64,000 nt of DNA from Calditrichaceae bacterium (GCA_050173015.1 JBFXLE010000004.1:32001-96000); one strand, 5' to 3'. Shown: positions 1-16,310, counted from the stretch's first letter. A program made the numbers and translations. The notes: a model not told the origin generated them from the letters alone.

Positions 1-13
1 TGAAGAAACATGG

Positions 14-125
14 TAAGTTAACTCTGAAACTTGAGAAGTTACGCCGGAAACTTCTGAAGTTACTCCGGAAAGTTCTGAAGTTACGCCGAAAAGTTCTGAA
101 GTTACAAACGTAACCCGGGAAGTTT
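14..125. repeat. 21-bp tandem repeat (GAAGTTACNCCGGAAANTTCT-like), ~5 units
   Basis: GAAGTT recurs at 35, 56, 77, 98 and 119 (exact 21-bp period), with a degenerate TAAGTT at 14. Confidence 0.85.
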
Positions 126-3155: not shown

Positions 3156-3554
3156 ATGAGAAAGATAATATTTTTGTTGTGGATCGTATTTATCAGTTTG
3201 CTAATCAGTTGCGATGAAAACTCACGTTTGAGTTTAGCATTTTCACCACCCAAATGTACACTCGCGGAATTGGAAAAAAAGGACTATACTCCGGGTAGTT
3301 TTGCCCGTATCAGTTATAAGGCAACAAATGTTAGCGATCCCATTGCCTTCAGTGTCGCATGTATAATAAAACTAAAAAAGGGAAATTTAATTGTAGACCG
3401 GAGCAGCGTATATTTTGGAACACTTGAATCAGGTGAATCATCCATAGAAGATGCTGTATTTTCAAAAATAAAAACACATACAGAATATGACGATGTCGAA
3501 ATTACCTTATCATGGTACGATGCAAATAATGAATATTACGAAAAGTCATATTAA
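3156..3554 (+). CDS. Hypothetical lipoprotein (Ig-like beta fold likely)
   Basis: Signal peptide II ending LLISC; RBS AAGGA; beta-rich sequence. Confidence 0.7.
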   Translation: MRKIIFLLWIVFISLLISCDENSRLSLAFSPPKCTLAELEKKDYTPGSFARISYKATNVSDPIAFSVACIIKLKKGNLIVDRSSVYFGTLESGESSIEDAVFSKIKTHTEYDDVEITLSWYDANNEYYEKSY

Positions 3555-3609
3555 TTTCACATAACCCGGGAAACCTTATTTGCTTTTCAGTCTTTATTTC
3601 TACAAAAAT

Positions 3610-3820
3610 TCATCCCTCCGGGATTGGGATTAATGAATAAATTGAAAACTCTGGGTTGATGTAACAATGTTAAATAGATTGGATATGGAAACCCGACGCC
3701 GGAGGCGTCACAGCTTAGTAGAATAGGGATTCCGTGGTGTGTTGTTCGACCCCGACGGGGTCGCAGAAAGATGTGGTGTCTGTTTTTCTATTAACGTGTA
3801 ATCCCTTCGGGATTGGGAAT
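3610..3820. repeat. REP-like palindromic element (family 2)
   Basis: Hairpins ATCCCTCCGGGAT, GACGCCGGAGGCGTC, CGACCCCGACGGGGTCG, AATCCCTTCGGGATT; partial homologous copy at ~16050-16120. Confidence 0.65.
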
Positions 3821-4133
3821 AAGCGTATGTATTAAAACCCGGAGTGTCTAAAAATTGTAATGAGAAAGGTTTAAAACGTTTGCGCGAAAGTTAAGCCACC
3901 CTTGAAAATTTCATCCTTTTGTTTATAATAATAACGTTATTATTTCATCTTTTGTCTTTTTGCTTCAATCATTGAAAATGTGTACAAAGTTGATTTTGAT
4001 ATAGATGTCAGCTCATTTTTTGGATAATATTTCAGGCCGGTTTTAAGAAAAAAAGAAAATAATGGTTTTGGTTGTTTTCAAAAAGGTCCTGGTCTATTCA
4101 GCGTAGGAGCGTATTGTTCCCGACGGATAATTT

Positions 4134-4211
4134 TTCTAATATTGGAAACATTTTTTTTTCTAACATTAGAATAAGTTTTCTATATTTAGAAAAAGTTTTC
4201 CAATATTGGAA
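4134..4211. promoter_or_regulatory. Four phased 14-bp palindromes TTCYAATATTRGAA (operator-like)
   Basis: Copies at 4134, 4158, 4178 and 4198, spaced 24/20/20 bp, 65 bp upstream of the 4277 start. Confidence 0.65.
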
Positions 4212-4276
4212 TAAAATGATAATTAACAGAGACATCTAATTAATATGTTAGCCCTTAATATAAAAGTTACAGGTAT

Positions 4277-5518
4277 ATGAAGATGAAATTGATTACGACA
4301 ATATTATTAGTAATTTTTGTTTTTGGATCTGCTTTTTCCCAATCATCTTACACTGGACAGACAGTAGAAGACTTATTCGACTTGCCTGAAGAAGAAATAA
4401 ATATCGGGGTTGCTTCTCTAGTTTTGGCAAAAGAATTCTATCCTGATATGAACGTTGATTTCTTCCTTTATAGTTTTGATTATATGGCTCAACGATTTAG
4501 TGAAGTGTTTGGACAATATGAAAATCCTGATGAAAGAGTGCGTGCCTTGAACACATATTTTTACAAATCAGGTTTTTGGAATGATGGGATAACTTTCAGT
4601 TATGATGATGACGATTTACATGTGACCAAATTAAGTAACAGATTTATTAATGGTTATATTGCAACGAAGAAAGGCTCCTGCATTACGATGCCTTTGCTTT
4701 ATGTAATAATCGGTGAAAGGTTAGGATGGCCGATATATCCTGTTCGTTCAGCAAAACACTTCTTTGTTCGTTATATTCCAAAAGAATTGTCTTTTAACTT
4801 CCAGCAAAATATTGAAACCACCAATGGCGGTTCATTTATATCTGATGAGCAATATAAATTAGACGTTCAAATTCCTGACAAAGCGATTGAGAACGGTGTC
4901 TATTTACGAACTCTTTCAAAAAAAGAATATTTAGCATCCCTTCTTTTAATCAACGCCAATCAACATCTTGAAAATAACAACATTGAAATCGCCAAAAATT
5001 ATTTTAGAATCGCAATTAGATATGATTCTACTTTATCATCAGCCTATTGGAATTATGCCCTTATTCATTTTGCAGAAGCAAGAAAATTAGAAGAAGAACT
5101 ATATAACGAACAACAAACAGAAATTTCTTATTATGAAATTCAAGCGATGAATAAGAAGAATCAGTATATATATCCAAACCAGAATAAACCGACACAAAAG
5201 AATCTTATGGATTATTTGAAGATTAAAACACCTGATAAAGCCGCTTTTGAGACTTTTAACCATACGATTCCAGAGACTAAAGAAGTCAAATCCACGTCAA
5301 ATAAAAATATCTCGCTAACTTCGAATCAGAAAATAGAATTACAAACTTCACTGATGGAAATTGAAGAAAAATATAAACCAAAAATTCTTGCCAAACTTGA
5401 TGTTTATCGTGAGTATAAAAATAAAGCAGAAGAATTGGGAATTGTAACAAAGTATCCATTAGAGTTTTTTATTAAACAATCAGAAAGTCTAAAGCGATTT
5501 AAAGAGAAAGGAAATTAA
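4277..5518 (+). CDS. Secreted transglutaminase-like (SirB1/Transglut_core2-type) protein with TPR-like region
   Basis: Signal peptide; GSCITMPLLY...LGWPIYPV...HFFVRY...NIETTNGG gives a Cys-His-Glu triad; helical TPR-like AKNYFRIAIRYDSTLSSAYWNYA. Confidence 0.8.
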   Translation: MKMKLITTILLVIFVFGSAFSQSSYTGQTVEDLFDLPEEEINIGVASLVLAKEFYPDMNVDFFLYSFDYMAQRFSEVFGQYENPDERVRALNTYFYKSGFWNDGITFSYDDDDLHVTKLSNRFINGYIATKKGSCITMPLLYVIIGERLGWPIYPVRSAKHFFVRYIPKELSFNFQQNIETTNGGSFISDEQYKLDVQIPDKAIENGVYLRTLSKKEYLASLLLINANQHLENNNIEIAKNYFRIAIRYDSTLSSAYWNYALIHFAEARKLEEELYNEQQTEISYYEIQAMNKKNQYIYPNQNKPTQKNLMDYLKIKTPDKAAFETFNHTIPETKEVKSTSNKNISLTSNQKIELQTSLMEIEEKYKPKILAKLDVYREYKNKAEELGIVTKYPLEFFIKQSESLKRFKEKGN

Positions 5519-5519
5519 G

Positions 5520-6281
5520 ATGAGATGGTTATCACTATCCACAATTTTATTATTTGTTTTGTCAAACCTATTATTTGCTGGTCGTTATTATGATGCCGCA
5601 ACTGGAAGGTTTATGCAAATTGATCCCCATTCTTCCAAATATCCATCTGTAAGTCCCTATAATTATACTTTAAATAATCCTCTTAAAAATATTGATCCGG
5701 ATGGTAAGGATGTTTTGGATGCAATTACGGGCAAACCTTTAACAGTTACTGAAATGACATCAAGAACAAAAAACCTAATAACGCAAATGAATTCATCATC
5801 AAAAGGTATTTTTGCTTCAAACGTTATTACTACTCATTCAAATTTTAGAGAAGATTTATACCAAATATGGGGTGGTCGCCAAGTAGACTGGGGTGGCACA
5901 ATGGGTTTTACATTTTTTGGAACTCAAACTGGATATCCAAGATATACAATGAATACAATGTTTACTTTAAATAATGAAAATATTAATGCCGGTTGGACTA
6001 CTCAAATGACAGCCTCTCCTTCATTACAATTAAATCCTGCGTTATCTAATGATTACAATCAAAACATATATAATTTGTCATTCGGTGCAACAACATTTGA
6101 TGCAGAAGGTAATTCTGTTCATTCTGATTATGTTATTAAAATAACTGGTACAATTGCTGAGATTAACTTCGCACTTGCTGGTACTGGGTATGAATTATAT
6201 AAAAATGATAAGGGTAAATATATATTTAGACAGATTGTAGAAGATAAGGAAGAAGATGAGAAGGAAAAGAATGATGAATAG
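5520..6281 (+). CDS. Signal peptide + RHS-associated core + unknown C-terminal (putative toxin) domain
   Basis: 20-aa hydrophobic leader then GRYYDAATGRFMQIDP...SPYNYTLNNPLKNIDPDG; no YD repeats. Confidence 0.85.
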   Translation: MRWLSLSTILLFVLSNLLFAGRYYDAATGRFMQIDPHSSKYPSVSPYNYTLNNPLKNIDPDGKDVLDAITGKPLTVTEMTSRTKNLITQMNSSSKGIFASNVITTHSNFREDLYQIWGGRQVDWGGTMGFTFFGTQTGYPRYTMNTMFTLNNENINAGWTTQMTASPSLQLNPALSNDYNQNIYNLSFGATTFDAEGNSVHSDYVIKITGTIAEINFALAGTGYELYKNDKGKYIFRQIVEDKEEDEKEKNDE

Positions 6282-7095
6282 AATTATAATTTTATCTTTA
6301 GTTGTTTTTTTTTCAAATTGTAAAATGAATGAAATTGATAGCCAAAAGAATATGATATTAATTCCTGGTGGTTCTTTTTTTATAGGTACTGATACATCCA
6401 CTGCAATTAAGTTTGCTAATAATAATCCAACTTTATGTGATTTTTCATGGTTTACAGACCAATTTCCGAAACATAAAGTTTCAATAGATACATTTTATAT
6501 CGATAAATATGAAGTAACCATTGGTGAATACGAAGATTTTATTTCAGCAACTAATTATGTTTCTATCGGTGATTGGAAAAGTTATTATAATTTCCTAAAG
6601 GATTCATTAAAATTAAATAAGAATATTAGAAACTTTCCCATAGCAGGTATCACTTGGGATGATGCATTTGAATATTGTAATTGGAAAGGAAAAAGATTAC
6701 CAACAGAAGCTGAATGGGAATATGTAGCAAAGGGTAGAACAAAAGATTTAGCATACCCGTGGGGGATGTACTATGATTCTTCAAAAGGAAATGTTCAAAA
6801 TATTAAAGGCCCACTACCAGTTGGTAATTTCTTACCTAATAGTTACGGTGTTTTTGACCTTGGTGGGAATGTTCAAGAGTGGTGCTATGATATATATGAC
6901 AAAGATTATTATGCCATTGCAGACTCAATAAACCCAAAAGGTCCAAAGGAAGGCCTAAGTAGAGTGGTCAGGGGGGGAAGTTGGTATCTAAATGGGAAAT
7001 TTTATTCAAGGTCTGCTACGAGATCAACTACATTGTATAAAGATAATTATATTAATCTAGTCGGATTTAGATGTGCCAAAAACTATAAAGACTAA
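6271..7095 (+). CDS. FGE-sulfatase (SUMF1/PvdO-fold) lipoprotein, putative immunity/binding protein
   Basis: Lipobox-like FFSNC; IPGGSFFIG, YEVT, RLPTEAEWEY, GNVQEW, RGGSW, GFRC; start overlaps the upstream stop. Confidence 0.85.
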   Translation: MMNRIIILSLVVFFSNCKMNEIDSQKNMILIPGGSFFIGTDTSTAIKFANNNPTLCDFSWFTDQFPKHKVSIDTFYIDKYEVTIGEYEDFISATNYVSIGDWKSYYNFLKDSLKLNKNIRNFPIAGITWDDAFEYCNWKGKRLPTEAEWEYVAKGRTKDLAYPWGMYYDSSKGNVQNIKGPLPVGNFLPNSYGVFDLGGNVQEWCYDIYDKDYYAIADSINPKGPKEGLSRVVRGGSWYLNGKFYSRSATRSTTLYKDNYINLVGFRCAKNYKD

Positions 7096-7111
7096 TTATA
7101 GTGTAATTTAG

Positions 7112-7215
7112 GGCTAACCAATCATTCGAGCTGACGGGAAACGCGGGGGATGATTTTCGGTTTTATCTTTAAATTTTGGGCTACTTATTCCCGCAGCTCA
7201 ATTCTAACGTTAGTG
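7112..7215 (+). other. attC recombination site (intact)
   Basis: R'' GGCTAAC, 5 nt, L'' ATTCGAGC (extra C), TGACGGGAA/TTCCCGCA stem with a bulge, L' GCTCAAT, 6 nt, R' GTTAGTG. Confidence 0.9.
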
Positions 7216-7312
7216 TCCTTCTTCAATATTCAGCTTATTACATATTTATGGAAATATTGTTTTAATTGTTCTGCGTTGTACTATTTATATTGTTTTTTAT
7301 CCATACAGCTTC

Positions 7313-7378
7313 ACATTACAAATCGCCCAGGTTGACCGGCGCGGACGACACGCCGTCAAGTTAACTCAAAGGTTGGGC
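7313..7378 (+). other. Degenerate attC site
   Basis: ACATTAC-5nt-GCCCAGGT TGAC...GTCA AGTTAAC-6nt-GTTGGGC. Confidence 0.55.
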
Positions 7379-7756
7379 GTCAAGGCGGTGTATTATTGCT
7401 CCATTTGATTTCAAACTCCCGGGAAACCCACCGCGTTTCAGGAGATTCAATATTTCTACGCGGCAAAACAAACTGCCCGGACAGCGCTTCCATAGGCTCA
7501 CATTCATGAACACGCGTACGGACATCGATTTGCTTATCGCCGGAGTGGTACTTACCATCATTTATATACGTTTAGAAAATCCGGCCTTTGTGATTGGAGT
7601 TCATGCCTTGATAAGTCAGCCGTTTAATATGATAGAGCCCCTTTTCCCATGCATATATGTCAAGCGGAATTTGGGACAATCCTATGTGAATACCGGGTAG
7701 AAAGATGAATTCAATAGGATCAAATTTATATAAATTCTTGTATAATTTTAAAAGGC

Positions 7757-9493
7757 ATGGAGAAGATGTTGAACTCAGATATCCTCAAACAAAAATTAGC
7801 CGCGATTGACGGGAAGGATTACGCGGCCTATCAGTCACTCTCAGGGATATACGAGTTCAATCTGTTTACGCTCATTATTCAGCGAATACCCAAAGATCCT
7901 TATGCTCCGCCACATACCGGTATATACCGTATTCAGGTCCGGCGAGATGACCAACGCGTGGTCGGTCTGAATATAAAATCCAAATTACAAAAGACCGCGT
8001 GCGCTGATTTCCTGGCGAGATATTTTTTTAACGCCTGTCAGAAAATTTCCAAAGGTATTCGTGGAACCGGATTCAGCGGATTGATCACCATTAATCAACC
8101 GGGTCAGGCCATTTTAGAAAGAAACAGTGTGGTCATCACGGATGATATGATTGAAACACGCTGCTTTTTAGGACTCCCCGCCGATGGCAGGAAAATTATT
8201 TCTGAAATTGCCGAAAACATGCTGTTCAATGAGCTTCCGGATATTGTAAACGAATCATTTTTAGATAAAAATATTGATCATAAGGCGCTGAGGGAACACA
8301 TCGATGCGGCGGAGGATGCCGCTTATCTTCGCGCTTATCTTGATTCTCTTGATCTGATCGCGTTCATCGCTGATAATTCCATCCTCCCCCGCGAAAGCGG
8401 AACGAGTGATAAACCCATGTCCGGTAAGTCGGCGATCCCGTTTTCTTCACCGGCCGGTCTGATCAGGGAGATAGAACTTCCGCATGCCGGTAAGGTCAAA
8501 GGTATGGGTATCCCCGGGGGGATCACACTGATCACGGGAGGAGGCTATCATGGGAAATCGACTTTGTTAAAAGCGCTTGAGACCGGTATTTACAATCATA
8601 TCCCCGGGGATGGACGTGAACGATGCGTATCAAACGCGCAAACCGTTAAAATACGGGCATATGGCGGAAGAAGCGTTGTAAAAACAGATATATCCCCTTT
8701 TATTAAAAATCTTCCTTTTCAAAAAGATACCACATCCTTTTGCACCGGGAATGCCAGCGGAAGTACATCACAGGCAGCGAATATAATAGAGGCGATTGAA
8801 GCGGGCGCCGAGGTGTTGTTAATGGATGAAGACACATGCGCGACAAATTTTATGATCCGCGATCATAAGATGCAGCAATTGGTGAACAAGAATGATGAAC
8901 CGATCACGACTTTTATCGATAAGGTAAGACAACTTTATGTAGAAAAAAACATATCAACCGTTTTGGTATTGGGCGGTGTGGGTGATTATTTCGATGTATC
9001 CGATCAGGTGGTTCAGATGATAAATTACCGGCCATTGGATATGACTTCCCGCGCGCGTCAAATTGCCGACATGTTTCCCGCAAAACGTAAAGTTGAGGAT
9101 GAAGCGTATCCTTTTCATATCCGGGAGCGGATTCCAATATCTGACAGCATTGATCCACTCAATCAATATGGAAAATTTGCCATCTATGCTAAGGAAGTTC
9201 ATCGATTAAATTTTGGAAATCAGGTAATCGATCTTACTGATTTGGAACAGCTTACAGAACTGTCACAAACAAAAGCCCTGGGATACGCGATTGAATATGC
9301 TAAAAAATACATTGATAAAAAAACATCATTGCGTGAGGTCGTTCATCTGGTGATAAAAGATATGGACAGGAATGGAATCGATATCATCAGCGATAAAATT
9401 TCCGGACATTTTGCCTGGTTTAGAGGGCTTGAATTAGCTTTCGCTTTAAATCGGCTCAGAGGTTTTGATGTTATTCAAAAAGAGCGGGGATGA
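7757..9493 (+). CDS. ABC-class ATPase domain protein (ABC_ATPase family)
   Basis: Walker A GGGYHGKST, ASGSTSQA, Walker B LLMDEDTCATNFM, LPRESG. Confidence 0.9.
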   Translation: MEKMLNSDILKQKLAAIDGKDYAAYQSLSGIYEFNLFTLIIQRIPKDPYAPPHTGIYRIQVRRDDQRVVGLNIKSKLQKTACADFLARYFFNACQKISKGIRGTGFSGLITINQPGQAILERNSVVITDDMIETRCFLGLPADGRKIISEIAENMLFNELPDIVNESFLDKNIDHKALREHIDAAEDAAYLRAYLDSLDLIAFIADNSILPRESGTSDKPMSGKSAIPFSSPAGLIREIELPHAGKVKGMGIPGGITLITGGGYHGKSTLLKALETGIYNHIPGDGRERCVSNAQTVKIRAYGGRSVVKTDISPFIKNLPFQKDTTSFCTGNASGSTSQAANIIEAIEAGAEVLLMDEDTCATNFMIRDHKMQQLVNKNDEPITTFIDKVRQLYVEKNISTVLVLGGVGDYFDVSDQVVQMINYRPLDMTSRARQIADMFPAKRKVEDEAYPFHIRERIPISDSIDPLNQYGKFAIYAKEVHRLNFGNQVIDLTDLEQLTELSQTKALGYAIEYAKKYIDKKTSLREVVHLVIKDMDRNGIDIISDKISGHFAWFRGLELAFALNRLRGFDVIQKERG

Positions 9494-13447: not shown

Positions 13448-13837
13448 ATGGCACCCTTGATTGAAACCAAAAGGCTGATTCTAAAAGCATTATCGCGCGG
13501 AGATGCGTCCCTCATGTACTCTTACCGCTCCGATCCCGAGGTAACGCGCTATCAGTCGTGGCATCCGGCGAGTGAACATGAAGCGGAGTCGTTTATTATA
13601 GAGACAAATAAAACTGATTTTAATACGGTGGACACATGGTTTCAGCTTGGCGTCTATCTGAAATCAACCGGGGAACTGATCGGGGATATCGGTATTCATT
13701 TCCTCGCTCCGGATAACCGGCAGGCGGAGATCGGATTCACCATTGCTCCAAAACATCAGCGCAAAGGATATGCCACCGAAGCGGTTGCGCAGGTTTTCAG
13801 ATTGAATCAAAATCTCCCGATTGAATTCGTGGTTTAG
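13448..13837 (+). pseudogene. RimJ/RimL GNAT acetyltransferase, C-terminally truncated
   Basis: IETKRLIL, EIGFTIAP, QRKGYATEA; ends at 129 aa without the usual C-terminal N..S..L motif; the last codons come from a degenerate REP. Confidence 0.7.
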
Positions 13838-14970
13838 ACAGGAGACCATGTAGCCAATAATTTTTGCACAATATAAACCTGGCGAACTAATCTAGAACGG
13901 GGGTGAAAATGAAAATCAGCGTACTAACCCATGACTTTAGTCATGGGTATAAGATGAGACAGAACAAATAAGAAACCGATTCATCGGTTTCAATAGAAAG
14001 GACATGATGTCTAAACGCACACACACAGCCTGTTATATACACCTGATTTGGGGAGTAAAAGACAGAGCGCCGCTTTTATCTTCAAATGAAGTTCAGAAAA
14101 AGGTAAATCACTATTTTCAAAACTATTTAAATGAGTTGGAAATAAACCTTATAGGGTTACACACAAATTCAGATCATGTCCATTTGTTAATTGAACTGCC
14201 ATTAAACAGAACCATACAGGATATTGTAAAACTTCTAAAAGGCAGTTCATCACATTGGATAAATCAGAATGATATTATTAAAATGAAATTTGCCTGGGCG
14301 GTGGGTTACGCCGCCTTTACGGTGTCTAAATCGAATGTCTCAAAAGTAAAAAGATATATCCTGAATCAGAAGGAGCACCATAGAGAAGCCACTTTTACTC
14401 AAGAGTACGAGAAGTTCATTGCAAACCGATAAATCGGTTTCTGAGGACTTCAGATGGTCCACAAACCCCACGATTAAAATCGTGGGTTAAGTAAGAGGAC
14501 ATGTAGCCAATAATTATTGTTCAATAAAAATGCGGTGTACTAAGCCATAACGATGGTGAAAATGAAAATCAGCATACTAACCCATGACTTTAGTCATGGG
14601 CATGAGACGCTGCAGCAGCAAAAAGAAACTGATTCATAGGTTACACAGGTATTTAGATAGGTTCACAAACCCCACGATTAAAATCGTGGGTTAGGCAAGA
14701 GTCCATGTAGCCGATGACATTGACGGAATAGAAATCAGGTGTACTAACCCATGACTTCAGTCATGGGTATAAGACACGGCAGAAGCAAAAAGAAACTGAT
14801 TCATAGGTTGCACAGGTATTTAGATAGGTTCACAAACCCCCACGATTAAAATCGTGGGTTAGGCAAGAGTCCATGCAGCCGATGACATTGACGGAATAAA
14901 AATCTGGTGTACTAACCCATGACTTCAGTCATGGGTATAAGACACGGCAGAAGCAAAAAGAAACCGATCA
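13808..14970. repeat. REP/REPIN tandem array (alternating inverted REPs, ~167-bp unit)
   Basis: TAACCCATGACTTYAGTCATGGG at 13925, 14578, 14745, 14913; inverted CCCACGATTAAAATCGTGGGTTA at ~14467, 14671, 14839 (degenerate at ~13814). Confidence 0.9.
14004..14432 (+). mobile_element. tnpA: IS200/IS605-family Y1 HUH transposase (REP-associated, RAYT-like)
   Basis: HLIWGVKDR, DHVHLL (HUH), LKGSSS, WAVGY, YILNQKEHH; flanked by REPs. Confidence 0.9.
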
Positions 14971-15276
14971 GCATGTCCTACTTGCTTGAGAAGATACATG
15001 ATGCCCTGATAAGTTAATACCTGTATGCAACCGATCGATCAAAGCTGAATTCCGTCCGCCGGTTCCTGCTGGGTGTTTCTATTAAATTGTCAATCTTTTT
15101 TTCTTTGTTTTTGCCATTTCTCCAACTGTGAGTTATATTTATTTCAACTTTTTTCCAAACACCGCTGCATCAGCAGCCTTTGACATATTTATCATCATCT
15201 TCGCAATACAAAACAAAAGAATATTTAGTGTGGTGCCTATTTAATCCCATCCGGTATAAACAGGCATTTTTTTTGG

Positions 15277-15558
15277 GTGGTTAATAATTTAAAAAATAAC
15301 CCCCTAACCCCCTTTATTCTGGCCATGGTTACCGGTGACCGTCAGGAAAGAAACATTAACAAAATTACACGGGACAAAGCCTACACCTATTTAAAAGACG
15401 CGGTGGACGCGGTACGCGATTGCGGGCAGTATGTATTCTGGAGGAACGAGCAACGCTTAAAAGGTTATATCAGTCAGTACCGCAAACGTTGGACCAAGGC
15501 AAAGGATACCGGGAACAATGCCGTCACCGAAGAAGAAGCATCTTATAATTTAATGTAA
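15277..15558 (+). pseudogene. Probable 3' fragment of a hypothetical protein gene
   Basis: Protein-like C-terminus (RDKAYTYLKDAVDAVRDCGQYVFW); the 5' end lies in homopolymer-rich sequence with a weak GTG start. Confidence 0.4.
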
Positions 15559-15764
15559 ATAACACGCTTCCAGCTATTAATTGCAATAGTGATTGATAGC
15601 CGGGAACTTTTTTATTGAACGTAAACGACTTCCGGGTTTCCCGAAAGAAAATATCTCGCCCCCCCGTAAAAAATAAATTCTAAGAATAGAAAGTATCATT
15701 TTCCCAATTAGCTTTATCTGAATTCACAGATCTGAATGATCAGATTCATTACAAAGGGGAGCCT

Positions 15765-15975
15765 AAAAACCGCGGAGGGACGGGTCACACTCCGGAGGGA
15801 AGGAGCAAACTTCGGAGGGAAGGGGCACAACTCCGGAGGGAAAGGGTACAATACCGGAGGGACTGGGTACAACCCCGGAGGGAAGGGGTACACCCCCGGA
15901 GGGACGGGTAAAACTTCGGAGGGGAGGGGTACAACCCCGGAGGGGAGTCCAAAAATACCGGAGGGAAGGTTCAAA
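15765..15975. repeat. G-rich 20/21-bp tandem repeat (CCGGAGGG core), 10 units
   Basis: GGAGGG at 15774, 15794, 15814, 15835, 15856, 15877, 15898, 15918, 15939, 15960. Confidence 0.9.
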
Positions 15976-16049
15976 ATTGACAAAAAAGAGAAATATTCAG
16001 GTTAAAAATGTAAAATATGATGTAATGATCTTTGAAATAATAGGTCAAG

Positions 16050-16120
16050 CCCGACGCTGTAGGCGTCGCATCTTTGTAGAACAGGATTCCCGAGGTAATT
16101 GTACGACCCCCACCGGGATG
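16050..16120. repeat. Partial copy of REP-like family 2
   Basis: CCCGACGCTGTAGGCGTCGCATCTTTGTAGAACAGGATTCC...CGACCCC aligns with 3692-3753. Confidence 0.6.
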
Positions 16121-16310
16121 AGCAACGATATAAGGGATATATAAGTCAATATATCAAGCCTCATAATAAAAATCGCTCAATTATCCGGCAGGAATGTTTT
16201 CCATCTGTTTTATAGTTACTAGTTCAAATGCCGGTAATTTCTAATATTTTTGAACTTTTTACTGGGGACACACACCAAAACATACATGAAAAATGCAGGG
16301 GGGAGCCAAC

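What the first reader, a model, noticed from the sequence alone, without database searches (positions are those of the whole stretch)
4248..7209. Shell-less 'mini-Rhs' toxin system (transglutaminase + signal-peptide Rhs core + FGE-fold lipoprotein) carried as one integron cassette
Seen: three tightly coupled genes (1-nt gap, then an overlap), each with an export signal. Gene 2 fuses a Sec-type signal peptide directly to the RYYD...DPDG Rhs-associated core and a ~190-aa C-terminal domain I cannot recognise, with no YD-repeat cage and no PAAR/VgrG. Known: Rhs cores autoproteolyse at DPxG to release a toxin whose immunity gene lies immediately downstream, normally from ~1,400-aa caged proteins. 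Inference: this is a minimal Sec-exported polymorphic toxin. The Cys-His-Glu transglutaminase/TPR partner may process, crosslink or chaperone it in place of the cage, and the lipoprotein would be the immunity factor for an envelope target.
Basis: partly seen in the sequence, partly recalled or inferred. Interest (0 to 1): 0.9.

Follow-up and report, generated by a model that had tools for sequence, protein, structure and literature searches.

The report
Cage-less Rhs toxin cassette with helper
A mobile three-gene unit encodes a very short exported Rhs-type toxin, a conserved transglutaminase-like helper and a probable lipoprotein antidote; the same helper-toxin pair recurs across several bacterial phyla and seems not to have been described.

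Summary
Three co-directional, coupled genes lie at 4277-7095:
- g1: an exported Transglut_core2/TPR protein.
- g2: 253 aa, made of a signal peptide, only the last ~42 residues of the Rhs-associated core, and a 190-aa C-terminal domain (CT) of unknown fold.
- g3: an FGE-fold lipoprotein lacking both catalytic cysteines.

- In 28 of 31 related loci (about 20 assemblies, several phyla), a g1 relative is followed directly by a 180-330-aa leader + core stub + variable-CT protein.
- In 29 family members the leader and stub are constant and the CT diverges right after DPxG. Ten of the 29 match Pfam families in that slot, mostly named toxin or effector domains.
- Cys/His/Glu(Asp) are kept in 32 of 32 g1-type proteins.

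The cassette claim holds in an integron-like sense.
- Position 4247 ends a junction repeated 11 times in the genome.
- Its 8-mer is reverse-complemented at 7111, which opens an attC-like hairpin.
- An independent metagenome carries the gene starting at 4249 behind unrelated DNA.
- No canonical integron integrase is present.

Still inferred: toxicity, g3 as immunity (position plus one co-occurrence), and what g1 does (binding prediction only weak).

Earlier scan notes reported integron-like arrays elsewhere in this genome, but not this system. Verdict: a new variant of polymorphic toxin systems.

The parts
3901..4250 (+). Dispersed non-coding 'platform' repeat. Its last ~60 nt form a conserved junction that ends in ...ATATGTTA; similarity to all other copies stops there.
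   Evidence: blastn finds copies on C1, C7, C10, C20, C45, C4 and others. The alignment of 12 copies is. A pattern search finds 11 copies genome-wide. The best sigma-70-like match in the region (11 of 12) is at 3902-3929, but the number of promoter-like sites is no higher than in shuffles.
4247..4254 (+). Crossover core GTTAGCCC; the cassette begins at 4248.
   Evidence: Similarity among the junction copies ends here. Its exact reverse complement lies at 7111-7118. A contig of run X4 matches from 4249 onward and carries unlike sequence before that point.
4248..7208 (+). The cassette: three genes plus the attC-like site, 2961 nt.
   Evidence: GC is 0.27-0.35 against about 0.42 for the genome.
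4277..5518 (+). g1: exported transglutaminase-like/TPR protein (413 aa). Signal peptide 4277-4339, Transglut_core2 4478-4855 (Cys135, His161, Glu180), TPR-like helices about 4919-5152, low-complexity linker, C-terminal helical hairpin 5321-5509.
   Evidence: The best Foldseek match of the model is menin.
5520..5579 (+). g2 signal peptide (residues 1-20, ending LFA|G).
   Evidence: Read by eye; 29 of 29 relatives carry the same type of leader.
5580..5705 (+). g2 Rhs-core stub (residues 21-62): GRYYD ... PxxxxDPDG.
   Evidence: TIGR03696 model positions 35-75 of 76. The invariant residues are listed. They are encoded by several synonymous codons. pLDDT is under 50 when the protein is folded alone.
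5706..6281 (+). g2 C-terminal domain (residues 63-253, with an acidic tail) and stop codon; the putative toxin.
   Evidence: Only 8 relatives among 1.84 billion representatives. The AF2 model is confident over most of 63-242. No solved fold matches.
6256..7095 (+). g3: FGE-fold lipoprotein (279 aa; Cys22 at 6319-6321; alternative start at 6274); the putative immunity protein.
   Evidence: Its 58%-identical relative P0165 shares contig count and longest contig with the CT relative P0283.
7111..7214 (+). attC-like site. The outer pair is GGGCTAAC / GTTAG; the inner stem is GAGCTG(A)CGGGAA / TTCCCGCAGCTC with one bulged base; about 50 nt lie between the arms.
   Evidence: Fold (z-score only -0.8 to -1.1). 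Complementarity to 4247-4254. The same ~100-nt element, bounded at 7113-7213 and 7116-7204, lies inside two other contigs of run X4.

Best explanation
The stretch 4248-7208 is one gene cassette of an integron-like capture system. It carries a complete Sec-dependent, cage-less, Rhs-derived polymorphic toxin module.

**Shown**
- g2 is built as signal peptide, then a 42-residue stub of the Rhs-associated core, then an exchangeable C-terminal domain.
- g1, an exported transglutaminase-like/TPR protein with a fully conserved Cys-His-Glu(Asp) set, is the conserved upstream partner of such toxins across several phyla.
- Leader and stub stay constant while the C-terminal domain is swapped.

**Inferred mechanism**
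1. Both proteins cross the inner membrane by Sec.
2. Signal peptidase exposes GRYYD... at the N-terminus of g2.
3. The stub does not fold on its own. It is held by the g1 protein in a menin-like transglutaminase/TPR pocket.
4. g1 then escorts the toxin and most likely processes it at or near the DPxG-Lys junction with its thiol active site, doing the job that the YD-repeat cocoon and its aspartyl autoprotease do in classical Rhs proteins.
5. The released C-terminal domain acts on the envelope of competitors.
6. The catalytically dead FGE-fold lipoprotein g3, translationally coupled to g2, binds and neutralises it in the producer's periplasm.

**My odds**
- Polymorphic toxin module with a dedicated g1-type partner: about 0.8.
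- g1 binds the stub: about 0.55.
- g1 cleaves it: about 0.3.
- g3 is the cognate immunity protein: about 0.6.
- Mobilised as a cassette: about 0.8.
For: **Pairing**
- 28 of 31 loci with g1 relatives (28-58% identity; Ignavibacteriota, Bacteroidota, Melioribacteraceae, a KSB1 bin, Balneolales, Cloacimonadales) have a 180-330-aa leader + core-stub protein as the next gene. The regex found 25 and 3 more were read by eye.
- The three exceptions are L028 (the contig ends there), L040 and L041.
- None of 9 more distant Transglut_core2 loci (L043-L051) has a stub within 7 kb.
- Several loci repeat the unit in tandem or string several toxin + small-ORF pairs behind one g1 (L014, L023, L036, L037).

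**Polymorphism**
- The alignment of 29 relatives is conserved to residue ~62 and unalignable afterwards.
- Pfam finds families in the CT slot of 10 of the 29: TseH-like 3, Ntox44 2, Peptidase_M91 2, Tox-REase-9 1, DUF5675 1, DUF3750 1. An eleventh member has only a weak OCRE hit.
- This CT also occurs behind a classical ...FGARYYD core (P0282).

**Selection on the stub**
- Its invariant residues use 2-5 synonymous codons across 19 genes. The conservation is therefore at protein level and is not just a DNA recombination handle.

**g1**
- Cys135 and His161 are kept in 32 of 32; position 180 is Glu in 29 and Asp in 3.
- The AF2 model has mean pLDDT 82.
- Its best solved match is menin, which I recall as a transglutaminase-like + TPR peptide-binding scaffold (8ig0_B, E 5e-3, prob 1.00, TMq 0.38).

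**Binding**
- Complex prediction of g1 22-413 with stub 21-68 gave weak support: score 0.57 (runs 0.57, 0.64, 0.00), best of 3 controls 0.01.
- In the tool's calibration the mark was reached by 58 of 80 solved complexes and 2 of 110 mismatched pairs. At 0.60 or under it was reached by only 7 of those 80 and by both mismatches that passed.
- The runs agree in at least 34% of contacts, and the partner's pLDDT is at least 33.

**g3**
- FGE fold.
- Leu and Tyr stand where human FGE has its two cysteines (that these are the catalytic pair is my recall).
- The lipobox Cys is nearly invariant in the subfamily.
- The g3 relative P0165 and the CT relative P0283 both list 6 contigs with a longest contig of 3271 nt.

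**Cassette**
- The junction is conserved in 11 copies.
- 6 of the 11 have the exact reverse complement of their GTTAnnnn 8-mer 0.8-4.5 kb downstream, followed by GTTA 76-135 nt later.
- The boundaries at 4249 and 7113-7213 are seen in other sequence contexts in run X4.
- In L025 an integron-integrase-like recombinase (TIGR02249, 243.7 bits, cut-off 265) lies 100 nt upstream of such a unit and is co-oriented with it.
- The distribution is patchy: a g1 relative was found in 5 of 86 genomes of the phylum, but not in the same-genus genome, which is 94% complete.
Against: - No experiment exists, and the toxicity of this CT is untested.
- The CT matches no Pfam or NCBIfam family and no solved fold: no Foldseek hit at E <= 1e-3 and best VIA Z 3.2. 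It shows no obvious catalytic motif.
- The canonical cleavage motif is PxxxxDPxG[LWF] (passages of bioRxiv 10.1101/2024.02.26.582050). Here the residue after G is K 20, R 3, Q 2, N 2, E 2 of 29, never L, W or F. The N-terminal half of the core domain is also absent. Rhs-type self-cleavage is therefore doubtful, and cleavage of any kind is unproven.
- The binding prediction is only a weak pass, and one of the three runs scored 0.00.
- At 279 aa, g3 is larger than the small ORFs that follow other mini-Rhs genes. None of 80 generic FGE-family loci has an Rhs core nearby. The contig of the closest CT relative (P0002, 3657 nt) does not appear among the g3 relatives.
- No route across the outer membrane is identified.
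- No integron integrase passes the cut-off in this genome. My strict attC scan found no regular attC series in the window. The hairpin at 7105-7220 is no more stable than shuffles.
Confidence: 0.7

Rival explanations
1. The module is the same, but g1 is a non-cleaving escort or anchor, like MafA for MafB in Neisseria. It holds the stub and presents the whole toxin at the cell surface or hands it to an export route. Its conserved Cys-His-Glu would serve binding or another reaction, such as cross-linking to an envelope component.
For: - Zhang et al. 2012 (PMC3482391, section 19, passages read) proposed peptide-binding anchoring for the transglutaminase domains fused to RHS-repeat toxins.
- They also describe a conserved upstream lipoprotein, MafA, for MafB toxins.
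- Some g1 relatives appear to be lipoproteins (L015, L017 and L022 start ...LIGCN or ...LISCN).
- The nearest solved fold, menin, is to my recollection a non-catalytic scaffold.
- The binding prediction passes only weakly (0.57, best control 0.01, with the counts given under the best explanation).
Against: - The fused transglutaminase domains of Zhang et al. had lost catalytic residues. Here Cys, His and Glu/Asp are kept in 32 of 32, which argues for chemistry.
- Nothing here separates cleavage from anchoring.
Confidence: 0.3
2. g3 is not the immunity protein. It is an accessory or independent passenger of the cassette, for example a glycan- or protein-binding lipoprotein needed for delivery, and immunity is absent or encoded elsewhere.
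For: - g3 is 279 aa, whereas most ORFs after mini-Rhs genes are 100-200 aa.
- The FGE family is huge, with 7943 of 8000 scored candidates matching, and none of 80 generic family loci shows an Rhs core.
- No FGE-type immunity family is mentioned in the held text of Zhang et al. 2012: 0 occurrences of sulfatase, FGE, formylglycine or DUF323.
Against: - g3 overlaps the end of g2, the usual toxin-then-immunity order (gene order described in PMC3482391).
- Both FGE cysteine positions are lost, which leaves a binding scaffold.
- The g3 relative P0165 and the CT relative P0283 share contig count (6) and longest contig (3271 nt).
- Both genes are single-copy in the genome.
Confidence: 0.25
3. The unit is not an integron-type cassette. 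The matching ends are chance, or belong to another kind of mobile or repeat element.
For: - No integron integrase passes the cut-off in the genome.
- No regular attC series is present in the window.
- 8-mer complement pairs are common by chance: 54 observed in the window against about 99 in shuffles.
- The hairpin z-score is not significant.
Against: - The 8-mer sits exactly where 11 junction copies lose similarity.
- 6 of the 11 copies show the same start / reverse-complement / GTTA geometry. By my own estimate, an exact 8-mer is expected in roughly 0.08 of 5-kb stretches.
- Run X4 has the gene starting at 4249 behind unrelated sequence, and has the 7113-7213 element alone inside other contigs.
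- An integron-integrase-like recombinase lies directly upstream of such a unit in L025.
Confidence: 0.15
4. g2 is a dead orphan fragment of a classical rhs gene that happens to be open, and the three genes have no joint function.
For: - The genome has a classical orphan array. Five ORFs of 304-369 aa on C26 carry the last YD repeats; the script's RYYD pattern marks three of them, and the protein search aligns a core in all five.
- The stub covers only half of the core model.
Against: - g2 has its own ATG 1 nt after the g1 stop, in another frame.
- The signal-peptide-type leader is conserved in 29 of 29 relatives.
- The arrangement recurs in 28 of 31 loci across phyla.
- The invariant stub residues are encoded by varied codons.
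Confidence: 0.03
5. The system is not an antibacterial toxin. It would be an envelope-remodelling or adhesion module: an enzyme (g1), its secreted substrate (g2) and a lectin-like lipoprotein (g3).
For: - The CT has no recognisable toxin fold.
- To my knowledge, the FGE/C-type-lectin-like fold serves as a binding scaffold elsewhere. Weaker matches for g3 include PorK/GldK and the Treponema denticola variable protein.
Against: - In relatives, the same slot holds toxin or effector domains such as TseH-like, Ntox44, Tox-REase-9 and Peptidase_M91.
- The slot is exchanged independently of g1, as in polymorphic toxins.
Confidence: 0.07

Closest known systems
Classical Rhs / YD-repeat polymorphic toxins (T6SS-linked Rhs, WapA, the TcC component of Tc toxins)
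   Same: - Carries the Rhs-associated core signature RYYD...PxxxxDPxG.
- Has an exchangeable C-terminal domain directly after it.
- A gene in the immunity position follows.
- The same CT also occurs behind a classical core (P0282).
   Different: - No YD-repeat cocoon: the whole protein is 253 aa and has no RHS_repeat hit.
- No PAAR or VgrG.
- Only model positions 35-75 of 76 of the core are present.
- The L/W/F residue after DPxG is absent in 29 of 29.
- A Sec signal peptide is fused directly to the stub.
Sec-dependent RHS toxins with an N-terminal inactive transglutaminase domain (Zhang, de Souza, Anantharaman, Iyer and Aravind 2012, PMC3482391, section 19; passages read)
   Same: A transglutaminase-fold module is combined with an Rhs-type toxin and a signal peptide.
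   Different: - There the domain is fused, is followed by an array of RHS repeats, and has lost catalytic residues.
- Here it is a separate upstream gene of the Transglut_core2/TPR type, no repeats exist, and Cys/His/Glu(Asp) are kept in 32 of 32.
MafA-MafB-MafI loci of Neisseria (as described in PMC3482391, section 37; passages read)
   Same: Same operon logic:
- a conserved, exported, non-polymorphic upstream gene;
- then a toxin made of a signal peptide, a conserved N-terminal part and a polymorphic C-terminus;
- then immunity;
- with extra toxin-immunity pairs downstream.
   Different: - No sequence relationship.
- MafB-N is described as a globular domain restricted to Neisseria. Here the constant part is a 42-residue Rhs stub, and the pair spans several phyla.
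Orphan rhs-CT/immunity modules
   Same: Made of part of the core, a CT and the following gene. This genome has such an array on C26.
   Different: - The orphans keep the last YD repeats and the full core, and lack a leader.
- g2 has its own start, a signal peptide and a dedicated partner gene.
Integron cassettes and integrase-less attC clusters (CALINs)
   Same: - Crossover at G|TT.
- The start of the cassette is complementary to the inner end of its own attC-like hairpin.
- One bulged base in the inner stem.
- A cargo of promoter-less, co-oriented genes.
   Different: - No IntI passes the curated cut-off in the genome.
- The related recombinase in L025 scores below the cut-off, in two stretches, and is co-oriented with the cargo.
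- The junction 'platform' is dispersed in 11 copies.
- A three-gene, 3-kb cassette is large.
Menin (structural analogue of g1 only)
   Same: The g1 model and menin align over about 260-310 columns (E 5e-3 to 1e-2, prob 1.00, TMq 0.35-0.40). That menin combines a transglutaminase-like domain with TPR helices around a peptide-binding pocket is my recall.
   Different: - Eukaryotic nuclear scaffold.
- 12-17% sequence identity.
- The match is weak and says nothing about function.

Membership tests
Rhs / YD-repeat toxins | YD (RHS) repeats forming a shell | tested here: not met
   Pfam finds no RHS_repeat in g2 at E <= 0.1. Only 20 leader residues precede the stub.
Rhs / YD-repeat toxins | Rhs-associated core domain (TIGR03696) | tested here: met
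   41.7 bits against a cut-off of 32.5, but only model positions 35-75 of 76 are matched.
Rhs / YD-repeat toxins | Cleavage motif PxxxxDPxG[LWF] (motif as given in bioRxiv 10.1101/2024.02.26.582050) | tested here: not met
   PxxxxDPxG is present in 26 of 29. The next residue is K 20, R 3, Q 2, N 2, E 2 and never L, W or F; g2 has K. Cleavage itself cannot be tested here.
Polymorphic toxin systems (sense of Zhang et al. 2012) | Constant N-terminal part with C-terminal domains that differ between relatives | tested here: met
   Alignment A1 of 29 sequences; leader identity 54-80% against no CT similarity, apart from P0002.
Polymorphic toxin systems (sense of Zhang et al. 2012) | Recognised toxin domains in the variable slot | tested here: met
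   For the family: 10 of 29 members match Pfam families in that slot, namely TseH-like, Ntox44, Peptidase_M91, Tox-REase-9, DUF5675 and DUF3750. For g2 itself: none.
Polymorphic toxin systems (sense of Zhang et al. 2012) | Cognate immunity gene directly downstream | tested here: inconclusive
   g3 overlaps the end of g2. One matched contig count and length links relatives of g3 and of the CT. Binding and protection were not tested.
Integron gene cassette | attC-type site with paired outer and inner repeats and crossover at G|TT, and a cassette start complementary to it | tested here: met
   The same geometry holds at 6 of 11 junction copies. The boundaries are seen in other contexts.
Integron gene cassette | Integron integrase (IntI) in the genome | tested here: not met
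   The best TIGR02249 match is 87.6 bits against a cut-off of 265. Only Xer-like genes and short decayed fragments were found.
Transglut_core2 (PF13369) | Pfam model above the gathering score, with the papain-like Cys/His/acid set | tested here: met
   46.5 bits against 23.5. Cys135 and His161 are kept in 32 of 32; position 180 is Glu in 29 and Asp in 3. The function of the bacterial family is stated as unknown in PMC10318531 (passage).
Formylglycine-generating enzyme (active FGE) | FGE-sulfatase fold | tested here: met
   Pfam E 5e-50; human FGE chains at E 4e-35.
Formylglycine-generating enzyme (active FGE) | The two active-site cysteines | tested here: not met
   In the HMMER alignment to human FGE, g3 has Leu and Tyr at the ...MCHRSYC... 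positions. That these two cysteines are the catalytic pair is recalled, not taken from a call.
T9SS ring lipoprotein GldK/PorK | Full-length match above the equivalog cut-off | tested here: not met
   TIGR03525 gives 110.3 bits against a cut-off of 350, over the C-terminal part only.

The most novel reading that the evidence does not exclude
The exported transglutaminase-like/TPR protein is a dedicated enzyme that has replaced the Rhs cocoon.
- It captures the unfolded 42-residue core stub in a menin-like pocket.
- It uses its invariant Cys-His-Glu set to cut the toxin at the DPxG-Lys junction, or to link it transiently.
- This would define a two-partner activation and export pathway for polymorphic toxins in Ignavibacteriota, Bacteroidota, Calditrichota and their neighbours.
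- The pathway would spread between phyla as cassettes of an integron-like system with a non-canonical recombinase.
- It would also give the first function for a bacterial branch of the Transglut_core2 (SirB1-type) family.
Probability: 0.3. Interest if true: 0.85.

Novelty: new variant of a known kind. Interest (0 to 1): 0.68.

Why it matters
- **Rhs biology.** Rhs toxins are understood as cargo sealed in a YD-repeat cocoon that cuts itself open. Here the cocoon is gone and only the last 42 residues of the core remain, kept under protein-level selection and always paired with a separate exported enzyme-like protein. If that protein binds or processes the stub, it shows another way to handle and release polymorphic toxins. 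It would also explain what the conserved end of the core does apart from plugging the shell.
- **Transglut_core2.** This is a testable functional context for a bacterial branch of Transglut_core2. A 2023 survey of papain-like folds lists the function of that family as unknown (PMC10318531, passage read).
- **Immunity scaffolds.** An inactivated FGE fold would be added to the scaffolds considered as immunity proteins.
- **Gene capture.** Whole toxin-immunity modules appear to travel as single cassettes of an integron-like system between phyla.

Tried and rejected
- **Strict attC scan.** A scan of the whole window (RYYYAAC...GTTRRRY with paired ends) gave 9 hits, none forming a regular series, and missed the site at 7111 because its outer repeat is GTTAGTG. 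Reading all intergenic regions up to 27 kb showed no common attC.
- **Rfam.** No match at gathering thresholds in the window.
- **CT searches.**
  - ESM Atlas: no usable hit; its own model is poor, pTM 0.26.
  - Foldseek against PDB: nothing at E <= 1e-3.
  - VIA-align against 48,161 chains: best Z 3.2.
  - JGI metagenome contigs: 299 pattern matches, none confirmed.
  - A first attempt with alignment A4 failed for lack of a conserved stretch.
- **g3-subfamily scan of metagenome contigs.** It returned only generic relatives of 26-39% identity. None of the 80 has an Rhs core, so it could not test co-variation of g3 with the CT.
- **Rejected co-occurrence.** P0287 and P0293 both sit on 504-nt contigs. 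I rejected this link because P0293 is an internal FGE fragment and the two cannot fit on one 504-nt contig.
- **Integrase remnant in the platform.** tblastn with the L025 recombinase found nothing significant at 3901-4250 (best E 4.8).
- **Expression.** No RNA holder is listed for 3900-7300.
- **Promoters and terminators.** Numbers in 3500-7800 equal those in shuffles.
- **Literature.** Searches for a description of the pair found only Zhang et al. 2012 on fused inactive transglutaminase domains.
- **Earlier scan notes.** Look-ups by place, by sequence and by words gave nothing on this system.

Full report
**1. What is there**

The window is C4:32001-96000 of a 4.34-Mb, 54-contig genome. Earlier notes of this scan assign the genome to the Calditrichaceae (unchecked by me).

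At 4277-7095 lie three + strand ORFs:
- g1, 4277-5518, 413 aa.
- g2, 5520-6281, 253 aa.
- g3, 6256-7095, 279 aa.

There is a 1-nt gap between g1 and g2 and a 26-nt overlap between g2 and g3.

- **g1** matches Pfam Transglut_core2 (46.5 bits, cut-off 23.5, residues 68-193) and weakly TPR_16.
- **g2** matches only NCBIfam TIGR03696, the Rhs-associated core (41.7 bits, cut-off 32.5). The match is confined to residues 21-62 and to model positions 35-75 of 76. There are no RHS repeats, PAAR or VgrG.
- **g3** is an FGE-sulfatase-fold protein (E 5e-50).

By eye, g1 and g2 start with classical signal peptides and g3 with a lipoprotein-type leader and Cys22. No signal-peptide predictor was available. 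The unit has 27-35% G+C, against 39-45% for the contigs of the genome.

**2. g2 belongs to a family of cage-less Rhs toxins**

A search of 5.8 billion proteins found 41 relatives of 148-303 aa. An alignment of 29 of them shows the pattern below.
- A conserved leader is followed by GRYYD...GRF/W...DP...PxxxxDPxG. The invariant residues are G21, R22, Y23, Y24, D25, G29, R30, D35, P42, P54, D59 and G62.
- All similarity is lost directly afterwards.
- All 29 have a tripartite signal-peptide-type leader ending x-F/A-A|G.
- Pfam recognises families in the variable part of 10 of the 29: TseH-like 3, Ntox44 2, Peptidase_M91 2, Tox-REase-9 1, DUF5675 1, DUF3750 1.

This is the architecture of a polymorphic toxin.

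The stub is not merely a DNA handle for recombination. Across 19 genes its invariant residues are written with 2-5 different codons.

It departs from the canonical Rhs cleavage motif PxxxxDPxG[LWF] (passages of bioRxiv 10.1101/2024.02.26.582050). The residue after G is K 20, R 3, Q 2, N 2, E 2, and never L, W or F.

g2 is not an orphan rhs fragment. True orphans exist in this genome on C26. They keep the last YD repeats and the full core, and have no leader.

**3. The transglutaminase-like gene is the conserved partner**

g1 has at least 215 relatives in the word-limited search, all with Transglut_core2. In at least 13 cases the longest-contig length of a g1 relative equals that of a g2 relative.

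A scan of one genome per species returned 40 loci.
- Among the 31 with g1 relatives (28-58% identity, about 22 assemblies), the next + strand gene in 28 is a 180-330-aa protein with a hydrophobic leader, an RYYD/HRYFD/ARYYN...DPxG stub and a variable C-terminus. The gaps run from -23 to +314 nt; the largest follows a g1 split by a frameshift. My pattern found 25, and 3 more were read by eye: L029, L030, L032.
- The assemblies are labelled Ignavibacteria/Ignavibacteriota, Melioribacteraceae, Cytophagia/Bacteroidota, a KSB1 bin, Balneolales and Cloacimonadales.
- The three exceptions are L028 (the contig ends 189 nt after g1), L040 (Elusimicrobiota; a core-bearing ORF lies two genes further on) and L041 (Oligoflexus).
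- Nine more distant Transglut_core2 loci, mostly Proteobacteria, have no stub within 7 kb.
- Some loci repeat the whole unit three times (L023, L036, L037). L014 strings three toxin + small-ORF pairs behind one g1.

The C-terminal domain moves independently of g1. g1 relatives 87-90% identical to ours go with unrelated CTs. The only full-length partner with our CT (P0002, 49% over the CT) goes with a g1 of 77% identity.

Cys135 and His161 are kept in 32 of 32 g1-type proteins, and position 180 is Glu in 29 and Asp in 3.

**4. How g1 might work**

- The AF2 model of g1 is good: mean pLDDT 82, with a disordered linker at 297-344.
- Its best solved matches are all menin (E 5e-3 to about 1e-1, prob 0.93-1.00, TMq 0.30-0.40 over about 230-310 columns in the well-superposed rows). 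From memory, menin is a transglutaminase-like + TPR scaffold that binds short peptides in a central pocket.
- In the AF2 model of g2 the stub (residues 10-62) has pLDDT under 50, while the CT is mostly confident. The stub therefore probably needs a partner to fold.
- Complex prediction of g1 22-413 with g2 21-68, both as alignments, gave weak support: score 0.57 (runs 0.57, 0.64, 0.00), best of three controls 0.01.
- In the tool's calibration the mark was reached by 58 of 80 solved complexes and 2 of 110 mismatched pairs. At 0.60 or under it was reached by only 7 of the 80 and by both mismatches. The runs agree in at least 34% of contacts, and the partner's pLDDT is at least 33.
- With the genomic pairing as a prior, I put binding at about 0.55.
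- Whether the conserved thiol set cuts the toxin, cross-links it or does something else is open. I favour processing near the DPxG-Lys junction (about 0.3) over a purely passive escort (about 0.3). The remainder is undecided.

Zhang et al. 2012 described transglutaminase domains fused to Sec-dependent RHS-repeat toxins. Those domains were inactive, and the authors proposed peptide-binding anchoring (PMC3482391, section 19; passages). The present system is a split, repeat-less version with the active site intact. The operon logic also parallels MafA-MafB-MafI (same paper, section 37).

**5. The C-terminal domain and g3**

The CT (residues 63-253, ending in an acidic tail) is rare.
- It has 8 relatives among 1.84 billion representatives.
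- One of them lies behind a classical ...FGARYYD core (P0282), and another is a full-length mini-Rhs on a 58-kb contig (P0289).
- Its model matches no solved fold: no Foldseek hit at E <= 1e-3 and best VIA Z 3.2.
- It has no cysteine and no evident catalytic motif.

Its activity is therefore unknown. That it is a toxin rests on the slot it occupies.

g3 is closest to genuine FGEs (E 4e-35).
- It has Leu and Tyr at the two cysteine positions of human FGE, so it is probably a binding protein rather than an enzyme.
- Its 12-member subfamily keeps the lipobox cysteine.

Support for immunity is limited to two points: the overlapping downstream position, and one co-occurrence. The g3 relative P0165 (58% identity) and the CT relative P0283 both list 6 contigs with a longest contig of 3271 nt.

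Points against immunity:
- None of 80 generic FGE loci carries an Rhs core.
- The contig length of P0002 does not recur among g3 relatives.

A lipoprotein immunity factor would point to a periplasmic or envelope target.

**6. The cassette claim**

- Window 3901-4250 is a dispersed repeat.
- Twelve aligned copies share a ~60-nt junction ending ...ATATGTTA and lose all similarity at that point. Each is followed by a different gene.
- A pattern search finds 11 such junctions in the genome. For 6 of them, ours included, the exact reverse complement of the 8-mer GTTAnnnn lies 0.8-4.5 kb downstream and is followed 76-135 nt later by GTTA. By my own estimate, about 0.08 per 5 kb would be expected by chance.
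- In our case GTTAGCCC at 4247 pairs with GGGCTAAC at 7111, 16 nt after the g3 stop. That opens a hairpin with an inner 12-bp stem, one bulged base and a closing ...AACGTTAG at 7204-7211. This is the geometry of an attC site and of a cassette circularised at G|TT.
- Public contigs give independent support.
  - A microbial-mat run (X4) has a 966-nt contig that matches 4249-4677 with 19 differences and carries unlike sequence before that point.
  - The same run has two other contigs that hold only 7113-7213 or 7116-7204.
  - A marine run (X2) holds the cassette almost unchanged (2 substitutions and 2 one-base gaps in 2589 nt) in the same context, while the downstream flank 7386-8300 differs at 35 of 915 positions.
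- In L025 a co-oriented recombinase sits 100 nt upstream of a g1-g2-type unit. Its best model is the integron integrase (243.7 bits, below the cut-off of 265, in two stretches).
- The own genome has only Xer-like genes and short decayed fragments of that recombinase type.
- g1 relatives were found in 5 of 86 genomes of the phylum at E <= 1e-20, at only 32-40% identity. None was found in the same-genus genome, which is 94% complete. Relatives in Ignavibacteria reach 55-58% identity.

Together with the low G+C, this indicates horizontal acquisition. It agrees with the earlier scan notes on integron-like arrays with a non-canonical recombinase elsewhere in this genome. I checked those notes only in part.

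**7. Verdict**

This is a real, widespread and, as far as six literature searches show (supplements not seen), undescribed variant of Rhs-type polymorphic toxin systems: a cage-less toxin with a dedicated transglutaminase-like partner, here packaged with a probable lipoprotein immunity gene as a single integron-like cassette. The architecture, the pairing, the polymorphism and the boundaries are shown. Toxicity, cleavage, the partner's chemistry, immunity and the export route across the outer membrane are inferred.

Noticed in passing
window 3901-4250; also C1:72668-73020, C7:75001-75492, C20:76579-76925, C20:79831-80354, C45:259-547, C4:205248-205532 of the genome: A ~350-nt non-coding 'platform' is dispersed in the genome and ends in a conserved junction (...ATATGTTA). 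The junction occurs in 11 copies, each followed by a different gene set. On C5 a partial copy (153484-153638) is followed directly by a decayed recombinase 3' fragment (153649-153786; 65% identical to the L025 recombinase over 46 aa).
   Followed up: partly
window 3590-3840: Short G+C-rich hairpin modules (such as CCCGACGCCGGAGGCGTC and GACCCCGACGGGGTC) form a mosaic repeat with dozens of copies on many contigs, often in tandem (C34, C15, C20, C4:196-198 kb).
   Followed up: no
window 5-88 and 15764-15978: Two arrays of 21-nt tandem units (GAAACTTCTGAAGTTACNCCG-like, and units ending in CCGGAGGGA) lie in intergenic DNA.
   Followed up: no
window 13779-14968: A repeated ~167-nt unit containing the perfect palindrome ACCCATGACTT(T/C)AGTCATGGGT, in at least 4 copies, lies between small ORFs. 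A 1.86-kb ORF-poor stretch follows (14433-16292).
   Followed up: no
genome C26:54246-62443 (minus strand): A classical orphan Rhs array lies at a contig end. Five ORFs of 304-369 aa keep the last YD repeats, and each is followed by a 123-151-aa ORF with hydrophobic segments. The script's RYYD pattern marks three of the five, and the protein search aligns a core in all five.
   Followed up: partly
L025:5993-6904 and L036:3513-6601: In L025 an integron-integrase-like recombinase that lacks the score of true IntI sits directly upstream of a transglutaminase/mini-Rhs unit and is co-oriented with it. In L036 two such recombinase genes precede an IS91-family transposase (470.8 bits), which lies upstream of the units.
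   Followed up: partly
L012:428-2961 and 8291-9188: In one Cytophagia contig, two transglutaminase/mini-Rhs units lie between genes with prepilin-type N-termini and a PilO-like ORF. An FGE-fold gene fragment 49% identical to the C-terminus of g3 lies at the contig start. This may hint at an export route. It was seen in this one locus only.
   Followed up: no
window 4573-7163 versus 7386-8300, run X2: In an independent marine metagenome the cassette is about 99.9% identical to the window, while the downstream flank differs at 35 of 915 positions. The cassette may be younger than its surroundings, or it may be shared between strains.
   Followed up: no
window 7757-9493: The next gene downstream encodes a 578-aa ABC_ATPase/MRB1590-type P-loop protein (PF09818, E 5e-120). 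A 550-nt non-coding stretch separates it from the attC-like site.
   Followed up: no
C-termini of mini-Rhs relatives (alignment A1): Many unrelated C-terminal domains end in a Lys/Glu/Asp-rich low-complexity tail. The tail of g2 overlaps the start of g3. The tails may reflect a conserved toxin-immunity junction rather than a function of the toxin itself.
   Followed up: no
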